Shown piece by piece: positions 195-11,354 of a DNA stretch of 11,441 nucleotides. How positions within the stretch are numbered: position 1 is the stretch's first letter; each line of letters starts with the position of its first letter. The notes beneath the pieces were generated by a model. The model worked only from the letters and a program-made list of their open reading frames with translations, was not told the origin of the DNA and did not search any database. Source of the stretch: a virus; UHGV virus genome UHGV-0368337. One strand, given 5' to 3'. Position numbers and translations under genes: made by a program.

Positions 195-416
195 TCACAA
201 CGACGCTGCTTTTACGGGTAAGCCATCGCGCCCGATGAAAACTTTAATCATGCAGTCGGTAATGCATGTTTTTGTTGTGAAGTTACGAATATAGAGTTTT
301 CTCTTTTCAATATTGTTTGCTGAAGCGATATATGTCCGACCTTCATGAAGAACATAATCGCCAGGCGTCACGCACTGACGTGGTATTTCATCAGTTCCGA
401 AGTGATGAGCAATCAT
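195..416 (-). CDS. small protein (73 aa), possibly a Kil-like host-killing protein
   Basis: ORF track 195..434; preferred start is the ATG at 416 ([10 protein letters not shown]...) with GGAGA 5 nt upstream. It lies at the distal end of the leftward operon, where kil genes sit in lambda/Rac-type prophages. Identity rests on position and size only. Confidence 0.5.
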
Positions 417-872
417 AATTATCTCCATTTTCACAAATGAACTTTGTTGATGCGGTGCCTGGTGCCTCCAGGTGGCGTTAACCAGTTAACAATTAACGCC
501 GGGTCAGGGGACGATGACTTTCCGTGACATCCTGTCGGTTTAACTGTTCCGCGTGCGCTGAGCCGCATTCACCGCATCACAAAATTCACTTTAAAAAGGG
601 CGGACATCAGCAATCGGCAAACCGATATCCGCCAAGGGTTACACACAGCAATGTTGTTATTCACAACCGGAAGCGCACGGTCGAAGAAATCTAACGACAA
701 TCCTTCTATGGGAAAGAGTCTTCGCCTCGCGCTTTCGTGTAGTACCCTGGCTTTCAGGGTAATGTCTGTTCAGTAAACTGAGAGTGCAGGAACTCCCCCG
801 TGTCCGGCGCACGATCTCCACCTCACCCGTGGAGAACTCCTCAACTACAAACCCCGTAAGGAGAGTGAATTT

Positions 873-7563: not shown

Positions 7564-8148
7564 ATGACCACTTTTACAAAAGAGCAGTTAATCAGTCATG
7601 TTAGTGAAAATGTAAAGGCGATGAAATTTGCAGTAAAACAGACAGCATTCAAAAATTCTCTCGAGGCAATTGAGTTGGATTTAGCACTGGCCCTTGTTGC
7701 TCAGGCTTCGCTGGAAGCAGAGCCCGTGCTTTATATGAATCGATTTACCGGAAAGACATTCTCACTGGAAGAGCAACCCGGTGCTGATAAGGAACCGGAA
7801 ATATACGTGCCGCTATATGCTGCCCCGCCAGACAGCGCCGCCATGCTTCAGGCTGGAAACTTTCGGGAAAAGAAGGGTTCGTCAACCAATAATTTTCGGG
7901 AAATCTCGGAAACGTCAACCAACCATCCGGTAACTCTGGATGGTTGGATAAGCTGTAGTGAGCGAATGCCGGATGACGGTCAGCACGTAATTATTTTATG
8001 TGATGGCGCATTCGTTCTTTATGCGCAATATCGAGACGGTGAGTTTTTTGATGTAGTCCGTGATGGTGATGAATTTTTCGAAACACAGAGCCGCAATGTA
8101 ACCGACTGGATGCCGCTACCAGAACCGCCGCAGGAGGTGCGCCAATGA
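7564..8148 (+). CDS. Ead/Ea22-like protein with DUF551-type C-terminus
   Basis: ORF track 7504..8148; preferred start ATG at 7564 (AGGAG 6 nt upstream); GTG at 7504 is an alternative. C-terminus ...WISCSERMPDDGQ...VTDWMPLPEPP matches the DUF551 signature as I remember it. Internal 32-bp tandem repeat at 7861..7925. Confidence 0.7.
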   Translation: MTTFTKEQLISHVSENVKAMKFAVKQTAFKNSLEAIELDLALALVAQASLEAEPVLYMNRFTGKTFSLEEQPGADKEPEIYVPLYAAPPDSAAMLQAGNFREKKGSSTNNFREISETSTNHPVTLDGWISCSERMPDDGQHVIILCDGAFVLYAQYRDGEFFDVVRDGDEFFETQSRNVTDWMPLPEPPQEVRQ

Positions 8149-8228
8149 ACTGGCCTGAAGCATTTGCAATTACAGGCGTTGCTATGGCTATCACTTTTTT
8201 AGTATATGTTATTTGTCGGTGGGGGTAA
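8145..8228 (+). CDS. small hydrophobic peptide (27 aa), putative single-pass membrane peptide
   Basis: ATG at 8145 overlaps the upstream stop (ATGA) with AGGAGG 6 nt upstream. MNWPEAFAITGVAMAITFLVYVICRWG. Below the ORF-track size cutoff. Confidence 0.4.
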   Translation: MNWPEAFAITGVAMAITFLVYVICRWG

Positions 8229-8263
8229 AAACGTTCGCCGGGATTAACACCAAAGGAGGGAAT

Positions 8264-8368
8264 ATGTCGGATGATATATCACTGGCAATGGAAGGTGCGC
8301 TGGCTGTTATTGCTGTTGTGGGCGTTTACTGCCTGGTTGTGTTTTTGATGGATCGACTAGGGAACTGA
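8264..8368 (+). CDS. small hydrophobic peptide (34 aa), putative single-pass membrane peptide
   Basis: ATG at 8264 preceded by AAAGGAGGG. MSDDISLAMEGALAVIAVVGVYCLVVFLMDRLGN. Below the ORF-track size cutoff. Confidence 0.4.
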   Translation: MSDDISLAMEGALAVIAVVGVYCLVVFLMDRLGN

Positions 8369-8377
8369 ATTCATTAC

Positions 8378-8399
8378 GATATGGGAATTCCCATATCGG
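8378..8399. repeat. perfect 22-bp palindrome CGATATGGGAATTCCCATATCG
   Basis: Sequence equals its own reverse complement. Lies between the second small peptide ORF and the candidate hok promoter; not followed by a U-tract on either strand. Confidence 0.85.
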
Positions 8400-8410
8400 G
8401 TAAAAACGGT

Positions 8411-8438
8411 TTGCGGTAAAGCGAGAGTTAAGTAGAAT
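8411..8438 (+). promoter_or_regulatory. candidate sigma-70 promoter of the hok-type transcript
   Basis: TTGCGG (8411..8416), 16 nt, TAGAAT (8433..8438). Would give a leader of about 170 nt containing the hairpin CTGTCTGCC...GGCAGACAG (8459..8493), as expected for hok-family mRNAs. Confidence 0.4.
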
Positions 8439-8499
8439 TGCTGCGGGTGCTTGAGGCTGTCTGCCTCGGGCATGCCACCGTAAGGCAGACAGAGAAAAG

Positions 8500-8565
8500 C
8501 CCCAGTTAACATTACGCGTCCTGCAAGACGCCTAACATTAATCTGAGGCCAATTTCATGCTAGAC
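8500..8565 (-). ncRNA. candidate Sok-like antisense RNA (hypothetical)
   Basis: Minus-strand promoter-like TTGCCT (rc of 8595..8600), 17 nt, TAACCT (rc of 8572..8577). The transcript would be antisense to the SD and start of the upstream in-frame ORF at 8557 and contain hairpin 8515..8530. No clean U-tract terminator. Confidence 0.25.
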
Positions 8566-8613
8566 ACATGTAGGTTAGCCTCTTACGCGCCGAAAGGCAA
8601 GGAGAAGCAGGCT

Positions 8614-8769
8614 ATGAAGCAGCAAAAGGCGATGTTAGTCGCCCTGATCGTCATCTGTATTACCGTCATTGTGACGGCACTGGTAACGAGGAAAGACCTC
8701 TGCGAGGTACGAATCCGAACCGGCCAGACGGAGGTCACTGTCTTCACAGCTTACGAACCTGAGGAGTAA
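8614..8769 (+). CDS. hok: Hok/Gef-family type I toxin (51 aa membrane peptide)
   Basis: MKQQKAMLVALIVICITVIVTALVTRKDLCEVRIRTGQTEVTVFTAYEPEE shows the Hok/Gef signature (TM helix, TRK-LCE-R-G-EVA-F-AYE). AAGGCAAGGAGAAG RBS. ORF track 8557..8769 includes an in-frame upstream start with its own GAGG. Confidence 0.85.
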   Translation: MKQQKAMLVALIVICITVIVTALVTRKDLCEVRIRTGQTEVTVFTAYEPEE

Positions 8770-8837
8770 GAGACCAGGCGAGGGAGAAATCCCTCGCCAC
8801 CTCTGATGTGTCAGGCATCCTCAACGCACCCGCACTT

Positions 8838-8859
8838 AACCCGCTTCGGCGGGTTTTTT
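8838..8859 (+). terminator. rho-independent terminator of the hok transcript
   Basis: AACCCGC-TTCG-GCGGGTT followed by TTTT, preceded by the strong 3-prime hairpin GGCGAGGGA-GAAA-TCCCTCGCC (8777..8798). Confidence 0.75.
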
Positions 8860-8978
8860 CACGTACTGTGGTTGTGAATACGATCGGTATTAGGCTATGC
8901 TAACAACATTAGCCTGACTAATTTTGTATTGACTTGATTTTTGTTAAAGAACAGGACGGAGAAGTAAGGGTACACCCA

Positions 8979-9245
8979 ATGAGCTACGCACTAAAAAAAC
9001 ACCCGCGATTGACTATTCCCCCTCGCGATAAAAGCGTTGTGGCAGCTCCGCGCCCGGCTATCGATGAAAATTGCACTCATCGTGAGCAGGTGAAAAATGC
9101 TTTCGATTTCGGTTTTCTCGTTACGAGAAGGCAATGGAAGAACTTTCAAAAGTGTAATGATGGGTATTGTGCTCTATGGCTGAGATTGTTGAAGGAGTGC
9201 ACTACCTTTCGTTTGATGATCTTACCGAAATTAATCGCCTTTTAA
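8979..9245 (+). CDS. hypothetical protein (88 aa) upstream of and overlapping the doc-like gene; possible non-canonical antitoxin or spurious ORF
   Basis: ORF track 8934..9245; candidate start ATG at 8979 with a purine-rich GGAGAAGTAAGGG upstream. Overlaps the Doc-like ORF by 70 nt in another frame. No Phd/YefM-like or other recognisable signature. Confidence 0.3.
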   Translation: MSYALKKHPRLTIPPRDKSVVAAPRPAIDENCTHREQVKNAFDFGFLVTRRQWKNFQKCNDGYCALWLRLLKECTTFRLMILPKLIAF

Positions 9246-9661
9246 TTGAGCTTCAAACACCAGATGAACCTGTTAGTGTGCTGAGTGTTGATAATTTAAG
9301 TTCTTCTCAGTCTCGTCCCAGCATGGTTCGATGGTATGAACAGACTAATGACATGTTTGTACTGGCATCAGTATTGATTGAAAGTCTGATTCAGAATCAT
9401 CCATTTGCTAATGCAAACAAACGAACAGCTATGATGGCTGGTTATGTCTTCTTGTTGTTGAATGGCTATGAGTTAACAGCACCAGGCGATGAAATCGTGG
9501 AAATGGCAGAGGGACTGGCCTGCAAAACCTATACTCGAGAAGATCTCGAGAACTGGTTGTGTTATTGGTCTCGTGCGTATGACGGCCGGGAATTATGTAA
9601 AACAGGCGCAACTGTTGTTTTGTATGAAACTATCAAGCTTAAAATAGAACAGCAAAACTAA
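9176..9661 (+). CDS. doc: Doc-family (Fic-fold) toxin
   Basis: ORF track 9167..9661 (TTG); first ATG at 9176. Contains HPFANANKRTAMMAGYVFLLLNGY, matching the Doc signature HxFx(D/N)(A/G)NKR rather than the canonical Fic motif. Size is that of stand-alone Doc proteins. Confidence 0.8.
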   Translation: MAEIVEGVHYLSFDDLTEINRLLIELQTPDEPVSVLSVDNLSSSQSRPSMVRWYEQTNDMFVLASVLIESLIQNHPFANANKRTAMMAGYVFLLLNGYELTAPGDEIVEMAEGLACKTYTREDLENWLCYWSRAYDGRELCKTGATVVLYETIKLKIEQQN

Positions 9662-9675
9662 AGGTGCTTCTAATG

Positions 9676-9697
9676 AAAACCCGCTTCGGCGGGTTTT
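9676..9697. terminator. bidirectional rho-independent terminator between doc-like and higA-like genes
   Basis: AAAA-CCCGC-TTCG-GCGGG-TTTT, A-tract on one side and T-tract on the other, between convergent genes. The stem is identical to the hok terminator at 8838..8859. Confidence 0.7.
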
Positions 9698-9711
9698 GTT
9701 GTATTGGAGTA

Positions 9712-10029
9712 TCATGATATTACCTGGATTCCGTTTTTCTCTACGACTGAAAGAAGGCGAAGAGCGGCACCTCCCGGCCGTTTTACACCACGTTCCCAGT
9801 CTGATATCAGGTTTTTACTGACGTTGAGGTATCTGGCAAAAACAGGTTGAGACAGATGCTCTCGTTCGCGCAGTGCACGGATCCTTTCCGGAGACATTAC
9901 CGGCGCTGGCTGGAGACAAGTTTCATCGAATTCTCGCATAGTCTGTTTCGTTACTGCGCCGATATCATGAAGCGATTCCATCATTTCATGTACGGATGCA
10001 AGCGCATCACTGCGGTAATTTTTACTCAT
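9712..10029 (-). CDS. HigA-like HTH (XRE-family) antitoxin
   Basis: 105 aa; GGAGG 7 nt upstream of the ATG at 10029. C-terminal HTH LSQPVFARYLNVSKNLISDWERG. Directly downstream of the RelE/HigB-like toxin reading frame on the same strand, i.e. toxin-first order. Confidence 0.75.
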   Translation of the reverse strand: MSKNYRSDALASVHEMMESLHDIGAVTKQTMREFDETCLQPAPVMSPERIRALREREHLSQPVFARYLNVSKNLISDWERGVKRPGGAALRLLSVVEKNGIQVIS

Positions 10030-10083
10030 TGGGTACCTCCGTAAACTGACCCTGTAGAATCAGTTGTGCCAGTTGTTCATCTG

Positions 10084-10391
10084 TTAGATTGAGTACGTGA
10101 GGAGCCCCTTCCGAAATGCACTTTCCTCAGTAGCGGTTATATTTTCACGTTCATTTTTTGCGTATGCATATACGAAAAAGGCCCTTGTGCCGACGCGATA
10201 GAAAATGATTGTGCGATAACCGCCAGATTTGCCGCCACCGACTCGTGGCAGACGTTGCTTGATAACGCCGTTACCCAGGTTTGCTGAGATAAGCCCGTTA
10301 TCAGCCTGTTTAACAATTTCGCGCAGTGATTGGTCGGATATTTTGTTTTGCGTGCAAGTCGCTCAAACCAGGCGTTTTTAAAAATGCGCAT
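10084..10391 (-). pseudogene. RelE/HigB-like type II toxin gene interrupted by a -1 frameshift
   Basis: N-terminus MRIFKNAWFERLARKTK from the ATG at 10391. The rest, including the hallmark GGGKSGGYRTIIFYR, is in the -1 frame (...ISDQSLREIVKQADNGLISANLGNGVIKQRLPRVGGGKSGGYRTIIFYRVG...TYSI, stop 10086..10084). Adding one base to the homopolymer at 10341..10344 restores a 102-aa ORF. Confidence 0.6.
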
Positions 10392-10458
10392 TTTTTGTTC
10401 CGTTATTAATGTATAACACATAGTGTTACATTGCGTAGGGATCTGCAATGCCATCAGT

Positions 10459-10488
10459 TTGACAACGTCGCGTGTTCGGGGCTATATT
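10459..10488 (+). promoter_or_regulatory. near-consensus sigma-70 promoter (TTGACA, 18 nt, TATATT)
   Basis: TTGACA at 10459..10464 and TATATT at 10483..10488. Divergent from the higB-like start; faces the structured region and the ORF6N-like gene. Confidence 0.5.
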
Positions 10489-10494
10489 CCTCAC

Positions 10495-10569
10495 GCGCCA
10501 GCAAAACCTGGCGTCGGGATTAGCACCCCGGATATCGAAACGGTGCATAACCGCGCTGGCGGTTTTTTT
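10495..10569 (+). ncRNA. candidate small RNA or transcriptional attenuator (about 75 nt)
   Basis: Starts about 7 nt after the promoter -10. Hairpins CGCCAG-CAAAAC-CTGGCG and GCACC...GGTGC, then terminator-like CCGC-GCTG-GCGG plus T7 (10551..10569). About 165 nt of further structured sequence precedes the next gene. Confidence 0.3.
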
Positions 10570-10733
10570 ATGCGCTAAGCACAGTCACATTCGCGATTTA
10601 TGGCGGGCTGTGTGGGGGAGCCGAAAGGCTCGCCGGATGTTTCGACCGGTAGTGCTAACCCCGCACAGTTCGCCACCACGATGATTAGCACCTGACGGTG
10701 GCGAGGTAAAAATTATCGAAACGCGAGGTCATT

Positions 10734-11354
10734 ATGGCTGTTCAAATTTCTGTCGAAAACCTTTCCCCTGTTACCTATAACCAGATCCCCGTAATTACTA
10801 CTGAACTGTTGGCTCACCTTTACGGAACAAAAATCAAAAACATTTCTGATAACTTTCTGAACAACACGACGCGATTCATGCCCGGAAAGCATTACTTTAA
10901 AATTGAAAAAAACGAATTACGCGAGTTTAAGAACAGACCCGAAACAATCGGGTTAGTTGGTAAAAATGCCCGCTCCCTCATCCTCTGGACAGAACGCGGC
11001 GCAGCCCGTCACGCAAAAATGCTCGAAACCGATCGGGCGTGGGAGGTATTCGAAAAACTGGAAGACTGCTATTTCAGCCAGGGAAAAACAGCACCAACCG
11101 AACAGCAGCCGCAGATTCAGCCACAATTCACAGCCGAAGAAATCATCCTCCTTTGCTACATGCAGCTCTGGATGGAAAAAGCCCAGGACATCAGCAAACA
11201 CCTGTATCCCATTATGAAAGAGCTGAACTCCTCATACACGAACAAGCTGTATGACATTGCGTTTGAGACCATCTACATGGTGACGAAGAACAGAGACGCG
11301 CTACTAAGGAAGGTGCGAATAAGCAGGTCATTTCTTCCCAAGCTGACTCGCTGA
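10734..11354 (+). CDS. ORF6N/KilA-N-like DNA-binding domain protein (phage regulatory or antirepressor-like)
   Basis: 206 aa; GAGG 6 nt upstream. N-terminal region (VTYNQIPVITTELLAHLYG...LILWTERGAARHAKMLETDRAWEVFEKLEDCYF) resembles ORF6N/KilA-N-type phage domains; C-terminal half is Gln/Pro-linked and unassigned. Confidence 0.7.
   Translation: MAVQISVENLSPVTYNQIPVITTELLAHLYGTKIKNISDNFLNNTTRFMPGKHYFKIEKNELREFKNRPETIGLVGKNARSLILWTERGAARHAKMLETDRAWEVFEKLEDCYFSQGKTAPTEQQPQIQPQFTAEEIILLCYMQLWMEKAQDISKHLYPIMKELNSSYTNKLYDIAFETIYMVTKNRDALLRKVRISRSFLPKLTR

What the first reader, a model, noticed from the sequence alone, without database searches (positions are those of the whole stretch)
8145..10391. 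Toxin island stacking type I (Hok), Doc-family and HigB/HigA-like modules within about 2.2 kb
In the position where lambdoid phages carry nin-region genes, this prophage has a Hok-family toxin with a long structured leader, a Doc-family toxin, and a HigB/HigA-like pair, preceded by two tiny membrane peptides and followed by a candidate sRNA and an ORF6N/KilA-N-like gene. Such dense stacking is typical of prophage-borne addiction or anti-phage (abortive infection) hotspots. Each module deviates from the textbook form: in-frame upstream start for hok, no Phd-like partner for doc, frameshifted higB.
Basis: partly seen in the sequence, partly recalled or inferred. Interest (0 to 1): 0.6.

Follow-up and report, generated by a model that had tools for sequence, protein, structure and literature searches.

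The report
Stacked toxin-antitoxin cassettes in a prophage
This stretch of an E. coli lambdoid prophage carries three separate toxin-antitoxin cassettes (hok/sok, a Doc toxin with a small uncharacterised partner, and a decayed HigB2/HigA2 pair) in a variable accessory-gene slot; almost all of it is already annotated in public genomes, so it is largely ordinary.

Summary
The three modules are at the stated coordinates and are far beyond chance. Hok scores PF01848 at 2.9e-22, with Rfam sok at 117 bits. Doc scores TIGR01550 at 122 bits and has the motif HPFANANKR. The repaired RelE/HigB2 scores PF06296 at 151 bits, next to an intact HigA2-like HTH protein.

- The in-frame upstream start is mok. 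It is annotated the same way in phage 933W (mokW/hokW/sokW, 92% identical), and the long leader is the canonical hok mRNA fold.
- Doc does have a partner, a 59-aa ORF (phrog_2208) that lies 7-18 nt upstream of same-clade doc in 92 of 92 loci examined. It is not Phd-like. It is predicted as a disordered N-terminus plus one C-terminal helix and has never been characterised. In this window alone a 1-nt deletion (T5 to T4 at 9109-9112) frameshifts it.
- The frameshifted higB is confirmed, with two frameshifts.

The slot is mosaic. Among 5426 E. coli genomes the full block occurs in 33, the doc cassette in 125 and the higBA cassette in 217. An exact 20-nt terminator-hairpin repeat flanks the doc cassette.

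The downstream "sRNA" is a P1-type C4/IsrK antisense RNA that controls an antirepressor. Interest is low to moderate; the only new element is the Doc partner family.

The parts
8145..8228 (+). 27-aa single-pass hydrophobic peptide ORF (MNWPEAFAITGVAMAITFLVYVICRWG), overlapping the DUF551 stop codon (ATGA)
   Evidence: ORF list. AGGAGG lies 8 nt upstream. tblastn finds 52-67% identical copies in 88 phage records, downstream of DUF551/Ea22/EaA genes and next to hokW in 933W. Function unknown.
8264..8368 (+). 34-aa hydrophobic peptide ORF (MSDDISLAMEGALAVIAVVGVYCLVVFLMDRLGN)
   Evidence: AAGGAGG lies upstream. RefSeq annotates it as hypothetical protein WP_001278450 in AST198, ML35, O104:H4 and O157 F6294. 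No match in the phage collection or in any profile library. The region is absent from 933W. Function unknown.
8445..8857 (+). Full-length hok mRNA: 5' tac element GGGUGCUUGAGG, leader, mok and hok ORFs, 3' fbi element CCUCAACGCACCC (8821-8833), terminator hairpin (8838-8857)
   Evidence: Rfam sok model matches 8445-8619 at 116.9 bits. The region is 92% identical to the 933W hokW locus from about 8400 to about 8841. The minimum-energy fold pairs the 5' end with the 3' end at -177.5 kcal/mol, z = -7.6.
8557..8769 (+). mok (70 codons), an in-frame N-terminal extension of hok that carries the Sok target
   Evidence: Aligns with the annotated mokW of 933W, which shares its stop codon with hokW.
8614..8769 (+). 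hok toxin, 51 aa (HokD/HokW type)
   Evidence: PF01848 2.9e-22. phrog_251 5.4e-32. RefSeq calls it hokD in identical prophages.
8495..8565 (-). Sok antisense RNA (inferred); its promoter TTGCCT-N17-TAACCT lies on the minus strand at about 8574-8602
   Evidence: The annotated sokW misc_RNA of 933W maps to these coordinates. The promoter was read from the sequence. Expression was not tested.
8838..8857 (+). Left copy of the exact 20-nt direct repeat AACCCGCTTCGGCGGGTTTT (terminator hairpin); left boundary of the doc cassette
   Evidence: the repeat finder family D1. Empty-site comparison with O157 PV15-279.
8979..9157 (+). Small partner gene of doc (phrog_2208; 59 aa in all other copies), frameshifted here by a 1-nt deletion in the T run at 9109-9112, which removes the invariant C-terminus SRYEKAMEELSKV
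   Evidence: Indel found against L001 and L002. phrog_2208 2.7e-42 over its full length. Alignment with invariant columns. Lies 7-18 nt upstream of doc in 92 of 92 loci. dN/dS 0.07-0.1. AlphaFold2 gives a disordered 1-33 and a helix 34-57. The T4 allele is in 0 of 95 genomes and 0 of 48 viral contigs.
9176..9661 (+). Doc-family (Fic-fold) toxin, 161 aa, with motif HPFANANKR
   Evidence: TIGR01550 122 bits. Fic 3.1e-11. phrog_577 1e-50. PDB relatives 9vzc at 1.1e-12 and P1 Doc 3k33 at 1.2e-4. dN/dS 0.15-0.18.
9678..9697 (+). Right copy of the 20-nt terminator-hairpin repeat; serves as a two-way terminator between doc (+) and the HTH gene (-)
   Evidence: The same 18-mer follows doc in Xenorhabdus and in Salmonella phage SW-37.
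9712..10029 (-). HigA2-like antitoxin, 105 aa, with an N-terminal neutralising region and a C-terminal HTH; intact
   Evidence: HTH_3 1e-7. Best solved relative is V. cholerae HigA-2 (5jaa) at 7.9e-8. There are 23 synonymous and 1 non-synonymous differences from the O157 allele, dN/dS 0.01.
10025..10391 (-). HigB2-type (PF06296 'RelE') toxin pseudogene with two frameshifts (about 10343-10350 and about 10107-10111); it would overlap the antitoxin start by 8 nt
   Evidence: Three-frame translation. Nucleotide alignment to the intact 123-aa O157 allele locates the indels. Best solved relative is HigB-2 (5ja9) at 4e-4.
10459..10733 (+). Outside the finding: promoter (TTGACA-18-TATATT), IsrK-like leader with a1/b1 sites, C4-type antisense RNA (10596-10680) and a2/b2 sites next to the antirepressor ribosome-binding site
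   Evidence: Rfam hits C4 at 75.1 bits, isrK at 74.3 bits and c4-a1b1 at 47.4 bits. Promoter scan scores 11 of 12. 7-mer complementarities are listed.
10734..11354 (+). Outside the finding: ORF6N plus P22_AR_C antirepressor-type protein
   Evidence: PF10543 2.1e-20 and PF10548 2.9e-7. phrog_377 anti-repressor Ant 5.2e-71.

Best explanation
Positions 8145-10391 are an accessory-gene ('moron') slot between the replication genes and ninB of a Rac/lambda-like E. coli prophage. Three independent toxin-antitoxin cassettes sit there side by side, in different states of repair.

(1) A complete, canonical type I hok/mok/sok cassette. The stable hok mRNA is kept closed by pairing of its 5' and 3' ends. 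The short-lived Sok antisense RNA blocks mok translation, and with it the coupled hok translation. Once Sok decays and the mRNA is trimmed at its 3' end, Hok is made and depolarises the inner membrane.

(2) A type II doc cassette. Doc is a Fic-fold kinase expected to phosphorylate EF-Tu and stop translation. Its neutraliser is inferred to be the 59-aa upstream protein, which has no DNA-binding domain and would bind Doc through its conserved C-terminal helix, much as the C-terminal segment of Phd does. In this window that gene is frameshifted by a private 1-nt deletion. That is either a homopolymer sequencing error or a very recent mutation.

(3) A higB2/higA2 cassette whose toxin is dead (two frameshifts) while the HTH antitoxin is kept under strong constraint. 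The antitoxin probably survives as an autorepressor or as an anti-addiction factor.

The cassettes are gained and lost independently by recombination at short shared terminator hairpins.

Shown here: gene identities, integrity, synteny, distribution, boundaries and RNA fold. Inferred: toxicity, neutralisation by the small protein, and the biological role (prophage maintenance, help with lysis, or phage exclusion).
For: - Family assignments.
- hok architecture: 92% identity to the annotated mokW/hokW/sokW of 933W, with mapped coordinates. The 5'-3' closed fold has z = -7.6. hokW-sokW was shown experimentally to be a type I TA system that speeds lysis and release of the Sp5 phage (PMC8621323).
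- Doc partner: present 7-18 nt upstream of same-clade doc in 12 of 12 genome or phage loci from Escherichia, Serratia, Citrobacter, Kluyvera, Hafnia, Yersinia, Xenorhabdus, Rosenbergiella, Orbaceae and Pseudomonas phages, and in 80 of 80 IMG/VR contigs. dN/dS is 0.07-0.1. The C-terminal motif RYEKAxEELSKV is invariant. The predicted structure is a disordered N-terminus plus a single C-terminal helix. A Phd C-terminal segment alone, once stabilised, is enough to neutralise a Doc toxin, and single-domain antitoxins exist (PMC10440598).
- Frameshifts. The 9113 deletion is unique to this window.
- Modularity: an exact 20-nt repeat flanks the doc cassette, and O157 PV15-279 has an empty site with one hairpin. 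Module counts are 33, 125 and 217 of 5426 genomes. Around doc, hok is present in 36 and higA2 in 8 of 65 viral contigs with full flanks.
Against: - No toxicity, neutralisation or phage-challenge data exist for this locus.
- The small protein has no detectable similarity to Phd (hhalign probability 0.3%) or to any Pfam, NCBIfam or PDB entry. Its antitoxin role rests on synteny and predicted shape only.
- No clear sigma-70 promoter was found between the hok terminator and the small ORF, and that upstream region is not conserved across genera. How and when doc is transcribed in a lysogen is therefore unknown.
- If the T4 allele is real, an intact doc without its partner should be toxic. That argues for a sequencing error, or against the partner being essential.
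- PADLOC finds no known defence system.
Confidence: 0.8

Rival explanations
1. The block works mainly as an anti-phage (abortive infection) hotspot. Incoming phages shut off host transcription, the labile Sok RNA and the labile protein antitoxins decay, and Hok or Doc kills the infected cell before the phage completes its cycle.
For: The slot is variable and its cassettes are exchanged independently, as in known defence hotspots. By established knowledge, hok/sok of plasmid R1 partially excludes T4, and type II TA systems such as ToxIN and RnlAB act as abortive-infection systems (the latter are mentioned in PMC8621323).
Against: No protein hits a PADLOC defence model above noise. The only experiment on the closest hok relative found help with the prophage's own release, not defence (PMC8621323). 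One of the three toxins is a pseudogene, and the Doc partner is broken in this copy.
Confidence: 0.3
2. The cassettes are selfish addiction modules or decaying remnants with no present benefit to phage or host. They persist by post-segregational killing and hitch-hike through recombination, and this copy is on its way to being lost.
For: higB2 carries two frameshifts, one shared by all 33 near-identical copies inspected (L001, L002, L016) and one shared by a subset. The Doc partner is frameshifted here. Both doc-cassette genes are broken in Salmonella phage SW-37.
Against: doc, its partner and the HTH antitoxin are under clear purifying selection, with dN/dS of 0.15, 0.07-0.1 and 0.01. hok/sok is fully intact and 92% identical to a functional homologue.
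Confidence: 0.35
3. The 59-aa upstream protein is not an antitoxin. It would be a co-factor, a specificity subunit or a regulator of Doc, or Doc in this clade is a non-toxic enzyme that modifies a phage or host target during lytic growth.
For: No homology to any antitoxin family. No DNA-binding domain and no recognisable autoregulated promoter. PHROGs files Doc-like proteins under 'moron / host takeover'. The window has an intact doc with a broken partner, apparently in a viable genome.
Against: The arrangement of a small upstream gene, a short gap and a Fic/Doc toxin with an intact kinase-type motif HxFx(D/N)(A/G)NKR is the standard type II layout. The disordered-N-terminus-plus-C-terminal-helix shape matches the Phd-C style of neutralisation. 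Strict co-occurrence in 92 of 92 loci. The T4 allele is unique and sits in a homopolymer, as expected for an error.
Confidence: 0.2

Closest known systems
hokW-mokW-sokW of Stx2 phage 933W / Sakai prophage Sp5 (type I TA; hok/sok family of plasmid R1; E. coli hokD/relF)
   Same: The two are 92% identical at the nucleotide level over about 440 bp. They share the mok in-frame extension, the Sok position, the Sok promoter, and the 5' tac and 3' fbi elements. Hok is 51 aa and scores 2.9e-22 on PF01848.
   Different: Here the cassette sits at the junction of the replication genes and the nin region, followed by a classical terminator hairpin and by other TA cassettes. In 933W it lies in the early-left accessory region next to a ygiW-like gene. 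8.5 non-synonymous differences were counted in hok.
Phd-Doc of phage P1 (type II TA; Fic-fold kinase that phosphorylates EF-Tu)
   Same: The toxin matches TIGR01550 over its full length and keeps the Doc-type motif HPFANANKR. The layout is a small upstream gene followed by the toxin. The partner has a predicted C-terminal helix, as does the neutralising segment of Phd.
   Different: The partner is not a Phd/YefM protein. It has no folded N-terminal DNA-binding domain, no sequence similarity to Phd and no Pfam or NCBIfam family. It belongs to a small family of about 37 clusters at 50% identity. Doc is 161 aa here against 126 aa in P1, because of a C-terminal extension.
HigB2-HigA2 of Vibrio cholerae (PF06296 toxin; antitoxin with a disordered N-terminus and a C-terminal HTH)
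   Same: The closest solved structures for both proteins are HigA-2 (7.9e-8) and HigB-2 (4e-4). The toxin gene comes first and overlaps the antitoxin start, and the antitoxin HTH is C-terminal.
   Different: The toxin is a pseudogene with two frameshifts. Similarity to the Vibrio proteins is distant. The module sits in a prophage rather than in a superintegron.
immI region of phages P1/P7 (C4 antisense RNA, a1/b1 and a2/b2 targets, icd-ant) and the Salmonella Gifsy-1 IsrK locus
   Same: Rfam C4, c4-a1b1 and isrK all score above their gathering thresholds, in the expected order, upstream of an antirepressor-type gene. The two C4 loops are complementary to one pair of sites upstream and another pair at the ribosome-binding site.
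   Different: No icd-like ORF was identified between C4 and the antirepressor. The regulated gene is an ORF6N/P22_AR_C protein in a lambdoid nin region.

Membership tests
Hok/Sok type I toxin-antitoxin | Small (about 50 aa) Hok/Gef membrane toxin | tested here: met
   PF01848 2.9e-22, residues 25-66 of the mok-hok reading frame. phrog_251 5.4e-32.
Hok/Sok type I toxin-antitoxin | Overlapping mok reading frame upstream, to which hok translation is coupled | tested here: met
   The ORF 8557-8769 is in frame with hok and aligns with the annotated mokW of 933W. Translational coupling itself was not tested.
Hok/Sok type I toxin-antitoxin | cis-encoded Sok antisense RNA with its own promoter, complementary to the mok translation start region | tested here: met
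   The annotated sokW maps to 8495-8565 on the minus strand. The Rfam sok model scores 116.9 bits. The promoter TTGCCT-N17-TAACCT is conserved with 933W. Transcription was not tested.
Hok/Sok type I toxin-antitoxin | Long-range 5' (tac) to 3' (fbi) pairing that keeps the full-length mRNA inactive | tested here: met
   The minimum-energy fold of 8445-8862 pairs GGGUGCUUGAGG with CCUCAACGCACCC; z = -7.6 and 0 of 100 shuffles fold as well.
Hok/Sok type I toxin-antitoxin | Toxicity of Hok and its neutralisation by Sok | not testable with these tools
   Shown for the 92%-identical hokW-sokW locus (PMC8621323), not for this copy.
Doc (death-on-curing) / Fic family toxin | Full-length match to the Doc subfamily profile | tested here: met
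   TIGR01550 122.1 bits against a cut-off of 38.65, residues 11-130 on profile positions 2-122 of 122.
Doc (death-on-curing) / Fic family toxin | Doc-type Fic motif HxFx(D/N)(A/G)NKR | tested here: met
   HPFANANKR is read directly from the translation and aligned to the same motif in PDB Doc chains.
Doc (death-on-curing) / Fic family toxin | EF-Tu Thr382 kinase activity | not testable with these tools
   Inferred from family membership only.
Phd-Doc module (Phd/YefM antitoxin partner) | Upstream antitoxin of the Phd/YefM fold with an N-terminal DNA-binding domain | tested here: not met
   The upstream 59-aa protein has no Pfam or NCBIfam hit. hhalign against P1 Phd gives probability 0.3%. AlphaFold2 shows no folded N-terminal domain. 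The module is therefore 'Doc with a non-Phd partner', not a Phd-Doc member.
Phd-Doc module (Phd/YefM antitoxin partner) | A cognate small gene immediately upstream of doc in one operon | tested here: met
   92 of 92 loci, with an intergenic distance of 7-18 nt in the 80 viral contigs where it was measured. In this window the gene is frameshifted.
HigB2/HigA2 (PF06296 RelE-type) type II TA | Intact toxin ORF of the PF06296 family | tested here: not met
   Two frameshifts. It is a pseudogene of this family.
HigB2/HigA2 (PF06296 RelE-type) type II TA | Antitoxin with a C-terminal HTH, encoded downstream of and overlapping the toxin gene | tested here: met
   HTH_3 covers residues 50-94. HigA-2 (5jaa) scores 7.9e-8. 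The intact O157 allele shows the 8-nt overlap.
P1 immI-type C4 antisense control of an antirepressor | C4 RNA, a1/b1 upstream targets, a2/b2 targets at the ribosome-binding site of the downstream gene | tested here: met
   Rfam C4 at 75.1 bits and c4-a1b1 at 47.4 bits, both above gathering. 7-mer complementarities at 10535-41 and 10520-26, and at 10716-22 and 10685-91. Regulation was not tested.

The most novel reading that the evidence does not exclude
The 59-aa phrog_2208 protein would be the founding member of an uncharacterised family of minimal Doc antitoxins. It is a stand-alone, largely disordered peptide with two conserved motifs (IPxRDK and RYEKAxEELSKV). It would neutralise a Fic-fold kinase through a single C-terminal helix, with no DNA-binding domain and hence no classical conditional-cooperativity autoregulation. 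The family is spread through prophages of Enterobacterales, Orbaceae and Pseudomonas. A stronger variant of this reading is that the T4 frameshift is real, so this lysogen tolerates or exploits an un-neutralised Doc.
Probability: 0.55. Interest if true: 0.4.

Novelty: new member of a known kind. Interest (0 to 1): 0.3.

Why it matters
As a whole the locus is a textbook case of mosaic accessory cargo in lambdoid prophages. RefSeq already annotates it gene by gene, including in the O104:H4 outbreak strain. It adds a clean example of cassette exchange at a shared terminator hairpin. It also shows three stages of toxin-antitoxin decay in 2.2 kb: an intact module, a module with a broken antitoxin, and a module with a dead toxin but a conserved antitoxin. 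The one point that goes beyond annotation is the Doc partner. A strictly co-occurring, unclassified 59-aa protein would add a minimal antitoxin without a DNA-binding domain to the Doc family. It would also raise the question of how such a module is regulated. This is incremental rather than surprising, because single-domain antitoxins and the sufficiency of Phd-C have already been described.

Tried and rejected
- Pfam, NCBIfam, PDB sequence search and hhalign against P1 Phd were run on the 59-aa protein. All were negative, so it cannot be filed as Phd/YefM or any other named antitoxin.
- PADLOC was run on all proteins. It returned only sub-threshold generic HTH, Fic and ORF6N hits, so the locus is not a catalogued defence system.
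- tblastn of the 34-aa peptide against the phage collection found nothing. Its copies in genomes are identical, so coding constraint could not be assessed.
- A promoter was sought for the doc cassette. No sigma-70-like site turned up between 8858 and 8978, and promoter-like sites in the whole region are no more frequent than in shuffles (4 against a mean of 3.8). Alignment of the upstream regions across genera shows no conserved element beyond the Shine-Dalgarno sequence.
- The idea that the 9113 deletion marks a lineage was rejected, because 0 of 95 genomes and 0 of 48 viral contigs share it.
- Literature searches for a described Doc partner of this type, or for this island, found nothing specific.
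- Sub-threshold Rfam hits were treated as noise caused by the terminator hairpins: isrK-like at 8778-8859, and rsmX and istR at 9610-9700.

Full report
**Origin and setting.** The window is 99.9% identical over its aligned length to a prophage of E. coli AST198 (NZ_AP043606) and 99.5% identical to prophages of ML35, FORC and O104:H4 strains.

**Check of the observation.**
- Hok scores 2.9e-22 on PF01848, and the Rfam sok model scores 116.9 bits at 8445-8619.
- Doc scores 122 bits on TIGR01550 against a cut-off of 38.65. It carries the Doc-type motif HPFANANKR.
- The minus-strand pair consists of an intact 105-aa HTH protein and a broken PF06296 toxin gene. As it stands, the toxin translation matches only profile positions 1-34. 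With two frameshifts repaired it matches positions 1-120 of 120 at 151 bits.
- The best solved relatives of the pair are V. cholerae HigA-2 (7.9e-8) and HigB-2 (4e-4), so "HigB/HigA-like" is a fair label.
- Both tiny ORFs have strong Shine-Dalgarno sequences.
- The 27-aa ORF has 52-67% identical copies in 88 phage records downstream of DUF551/Ea22-type genes.
- The 34-aa ORF is annotated in RefSeq but has no relatives in the phage collection.

**The hok module is textbook, not deviant.**
- The region from about 8400 to about 8841 is 92% identical to the hokW locus of phage 933W. There mokW (70 codons) and hokW share one stop codon, so mok is an in-frame extension, and sokW is annotated as a 71-nt antisense RNA.
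- Mapped onto the window, sok is 8495-8565 (minus strand), mok starts at 8557 and hok is 8614-8769.
- The minus-strand promoter TTGCCT-N17-TAACCT is conserved.
- Folding 8445-8862 gives a closed structure in which the 5' GGGUGCUUGAGG pairs with the 3' CCUCAACGCACCC. This is the tac/fbi fold-back of hok mRNAs. The energy is -177.5 kcal/mol with z = -7.6.
- hokW-sokW has been shown experimentally to be a type I TA system whose toxin is produced after mitomycin C treatment and speeds release of the Sp5 phage (PMC8621323).

**Doc has a partner, and this window has lost it.**
- Comparison with AST198 and ML35 shows a single-base deletion in the window, in a T run (T5 to T4 at 9109-9112).
- In all other copies a 59-aa ORF (window 8979 to about 9157; RefSeq WP_000119356) ends 18 nt before doc.
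- That ORF matches phrog_2208 over its full length at 2.7e-42. It has no Pfam, NCBIfam or PDB relative and no similarity to P1 Phd (hhalign probability 0.3%).
- The family is small. It has about 37 clusters at 50% identity among 1.84 billion representatives, nearly all 47-69 aa (three carry N-terminal extensions, up to 95 aa), with conserved motifs IPxRDK and RYEKAxEELSKV.
- AlphaFold2 predicts a disordered N-terminus (residues 1-33) and one helix (residues 34-57), with mean pLDDT 74.5.
- The ORF lies directly upstream of a same-clade doc in 12 of 12 loci from nine genera and two Pseudomonas phages. The same holds in 80 of 80 IMG/VR contigs recovered with Doc as the query, where the gap is 7-18 nt.
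- It evolves under purifying selection, with dN/dS of 0.07-0.1. Doc has dN/dS of 0.15-0.18.
- My inference is that it is the cognate neutraliser and acts through its C-terminal helix, like the Phd-C element. Phd-C is sufficient to neutralise a Doc toxin when stabilised (PMC10440598).
- The window's frameshift removes exactly this invariant C-terminus.
- None of 95 E. coli genomes and none of 48 viral contigs with the same sequence context has T4. The change is therefore private: either a homopolymer error or a very recent mutation.

**The higB2 toxin is dead and the antitoxin is conserved.** I aligned the window to the intact 123-aa allele of O157:H7 PV15-279. This places one net 1-nt loss at about 10343-10350, shared with ML35 and all near-identical copies inspected. 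It places a second at about 10107-10111, shared with AST198 and O104:H4. The HTH protein differs from the O157 allele by 1 non-synonymous and 23 synonymous changes, giving dN/dS of 0.01. It is therefore maintained although its toxin is gone.

**Modularity.**
- Among 5426 complete E. coli genomes, the whole block (at least 80% coverage) occurs in 33, the doc cassette in 125 and the higBA-like cassette in 217. Some part of the query occurs in 4761.
- Other prophages carry hok followed directly by an intact higBA (O157 PV15-279), hok then doc then DUF1367 (O157 F6294), hok then doc then DUF968 (ETEC), or hok then a ygiW-like gene (933W).
- In 65 viral contigs with full flanks around doc, hok is present in 36 and higA2 in 8.
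- The doc cassette is bounded by an exact 20-nt direct repeat, AACCCGCTTCGGCGGGTTTT, which is a terminator hairpin (8838-8857 and 9678-9697).
- The O157 PV15-279 locus has a single hairpin. Its left flank matches the sequence downstream of hok and its right flank matches the sequence downstream of doc. The same 18-mer follows doc in Xenorhabdus and in Salmonella phage SW-37.
- This points to gain or loss of the 840-bp cassette by recombination at the hairpin.

**Downstream of the finding.** The "candidate sRNA" is a P1 immI-type unit.
- It has a strong promoter (TTGACA-18-TATATT, 10459-10488) and an IsrK-like leader with a1/b1 sites.
- A C4 antisense RNA follows at 10596-10680. All three Rfam models (C4, isrK, c4-a1b1) score above their gathering thresholds.
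- The two C4 loops (GUUUCGA and GUGCUAA) are complementary to one pair of sites upstream. They are also complementary to a second pair next to the Shine-Dalgarno sequence of the ORF6N/P22_AR_C antirepressor gene.

**Function.**
- The anatomy is shown: three independent TA cassettes in a variable slot.
- How hok/sok works follows from the established model and from the 92%-identical hokW locus.
- That Doc arrests translation through EF-Tu phosphorylation, and that the 59-aa protein neutralises it, are inferences.
- Nothing here decides whether the cassettes serve prophage maintenance, help with lysis, phage exclusion, or only themselves.
- PADLOC recognises no defence system. I found no dedicated doc promoter.

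**Verdict.** Two of the three claimed deviations are not deviations, and the third is confirmed and extended. The locus is already annotated in public genomes and is an ordinary, if tidy, example of prophage TA cargo. The only element not yet described is the non-Phd partner of Doc.

Noticed in passing
window 10459-10733: A P1 immI-like regulatory unit. It has a strong promoter, an IsrK-like leader, a C4 antisense RNA and duplicated 7-nt target sites. One pair (10685-10691 and 10716-10722) abuts the ribosome-binding site of the ORF6N antirepressor gene.
   Followed up: partly
window 8838-8857 and 9678-9697: An exact 20-nt direct repeat of a terminator hairpin brackets the 840-bp doc cassette. 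O157 PV15-279 (L017) has the matching empty site with one hairpin. The same 18-mer follows doc in Xenorhabdus (L012, L014) and in Salmonella phage SW-37 (L005).
   Followed up: yes
window 9109-9112: A private 1-nt deletion (T5 to T4) frameshifts the Doc partner gene. It is absent from all 95 E. coli genomes and all 48 IMG/VR contigs that have this sequence context. It is either a homopolymer sequencing error or a very recent mutation.
   Followed up: yes
window 8377-8398: A perfect 22-nt palindrome, CGATATGGGAATTCCCATATCG, lies between the 34-aa ORF and the start of homology with the 933W hok cassette (about 8400). It could be a protein-binding site or a module junction. No T tract follows it.
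   Followed up: no
window 8145-8228: The 27-aa hydrophobic peptide ORF overlaps the DUF551 stop codon (ATGA). It is conserved at 52-67% identity in 88 phage records, always just after DUF551/Ea22/EaA-type genes. It looks like a real but unnamed small membrane protein.
   Followed up: partly
window 402-647 (minus strand): Sub-threshold Rfam hits to DicF (29.2 bits; gathering 48) and STnc100 (27.8 bits; gathering 47) lie in the early-left region near kil. They may be diverged prophage sRNAs of the dicB-operon type.
   Followed up: no
L005 (Salmonella phage SW-37) 2501-3131: Both the small partner gene and doc are split across reading frames in this phage genome, so the whole cassette is decaying there.
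   Followed up: partly
window 9712-10029 vs L017 5013-5330: The HigA2-like antitoxin differs by only 1 amino acid (23 synonymous changes) between the allele with the dead toxin and the O157 allele with the intact toxin. This suggests a function that is kept independently of its own toxin.
   Followed up: partly
window 10395-10440: A short divergent control region lies between the dead higB2 (minus strand) and the C4/ant promoter (plus strand). It contains an imperfect inverted repeat (TGTAACAC..GTGTTATACA) that could be the HigA2 operator.
   Followed up: no
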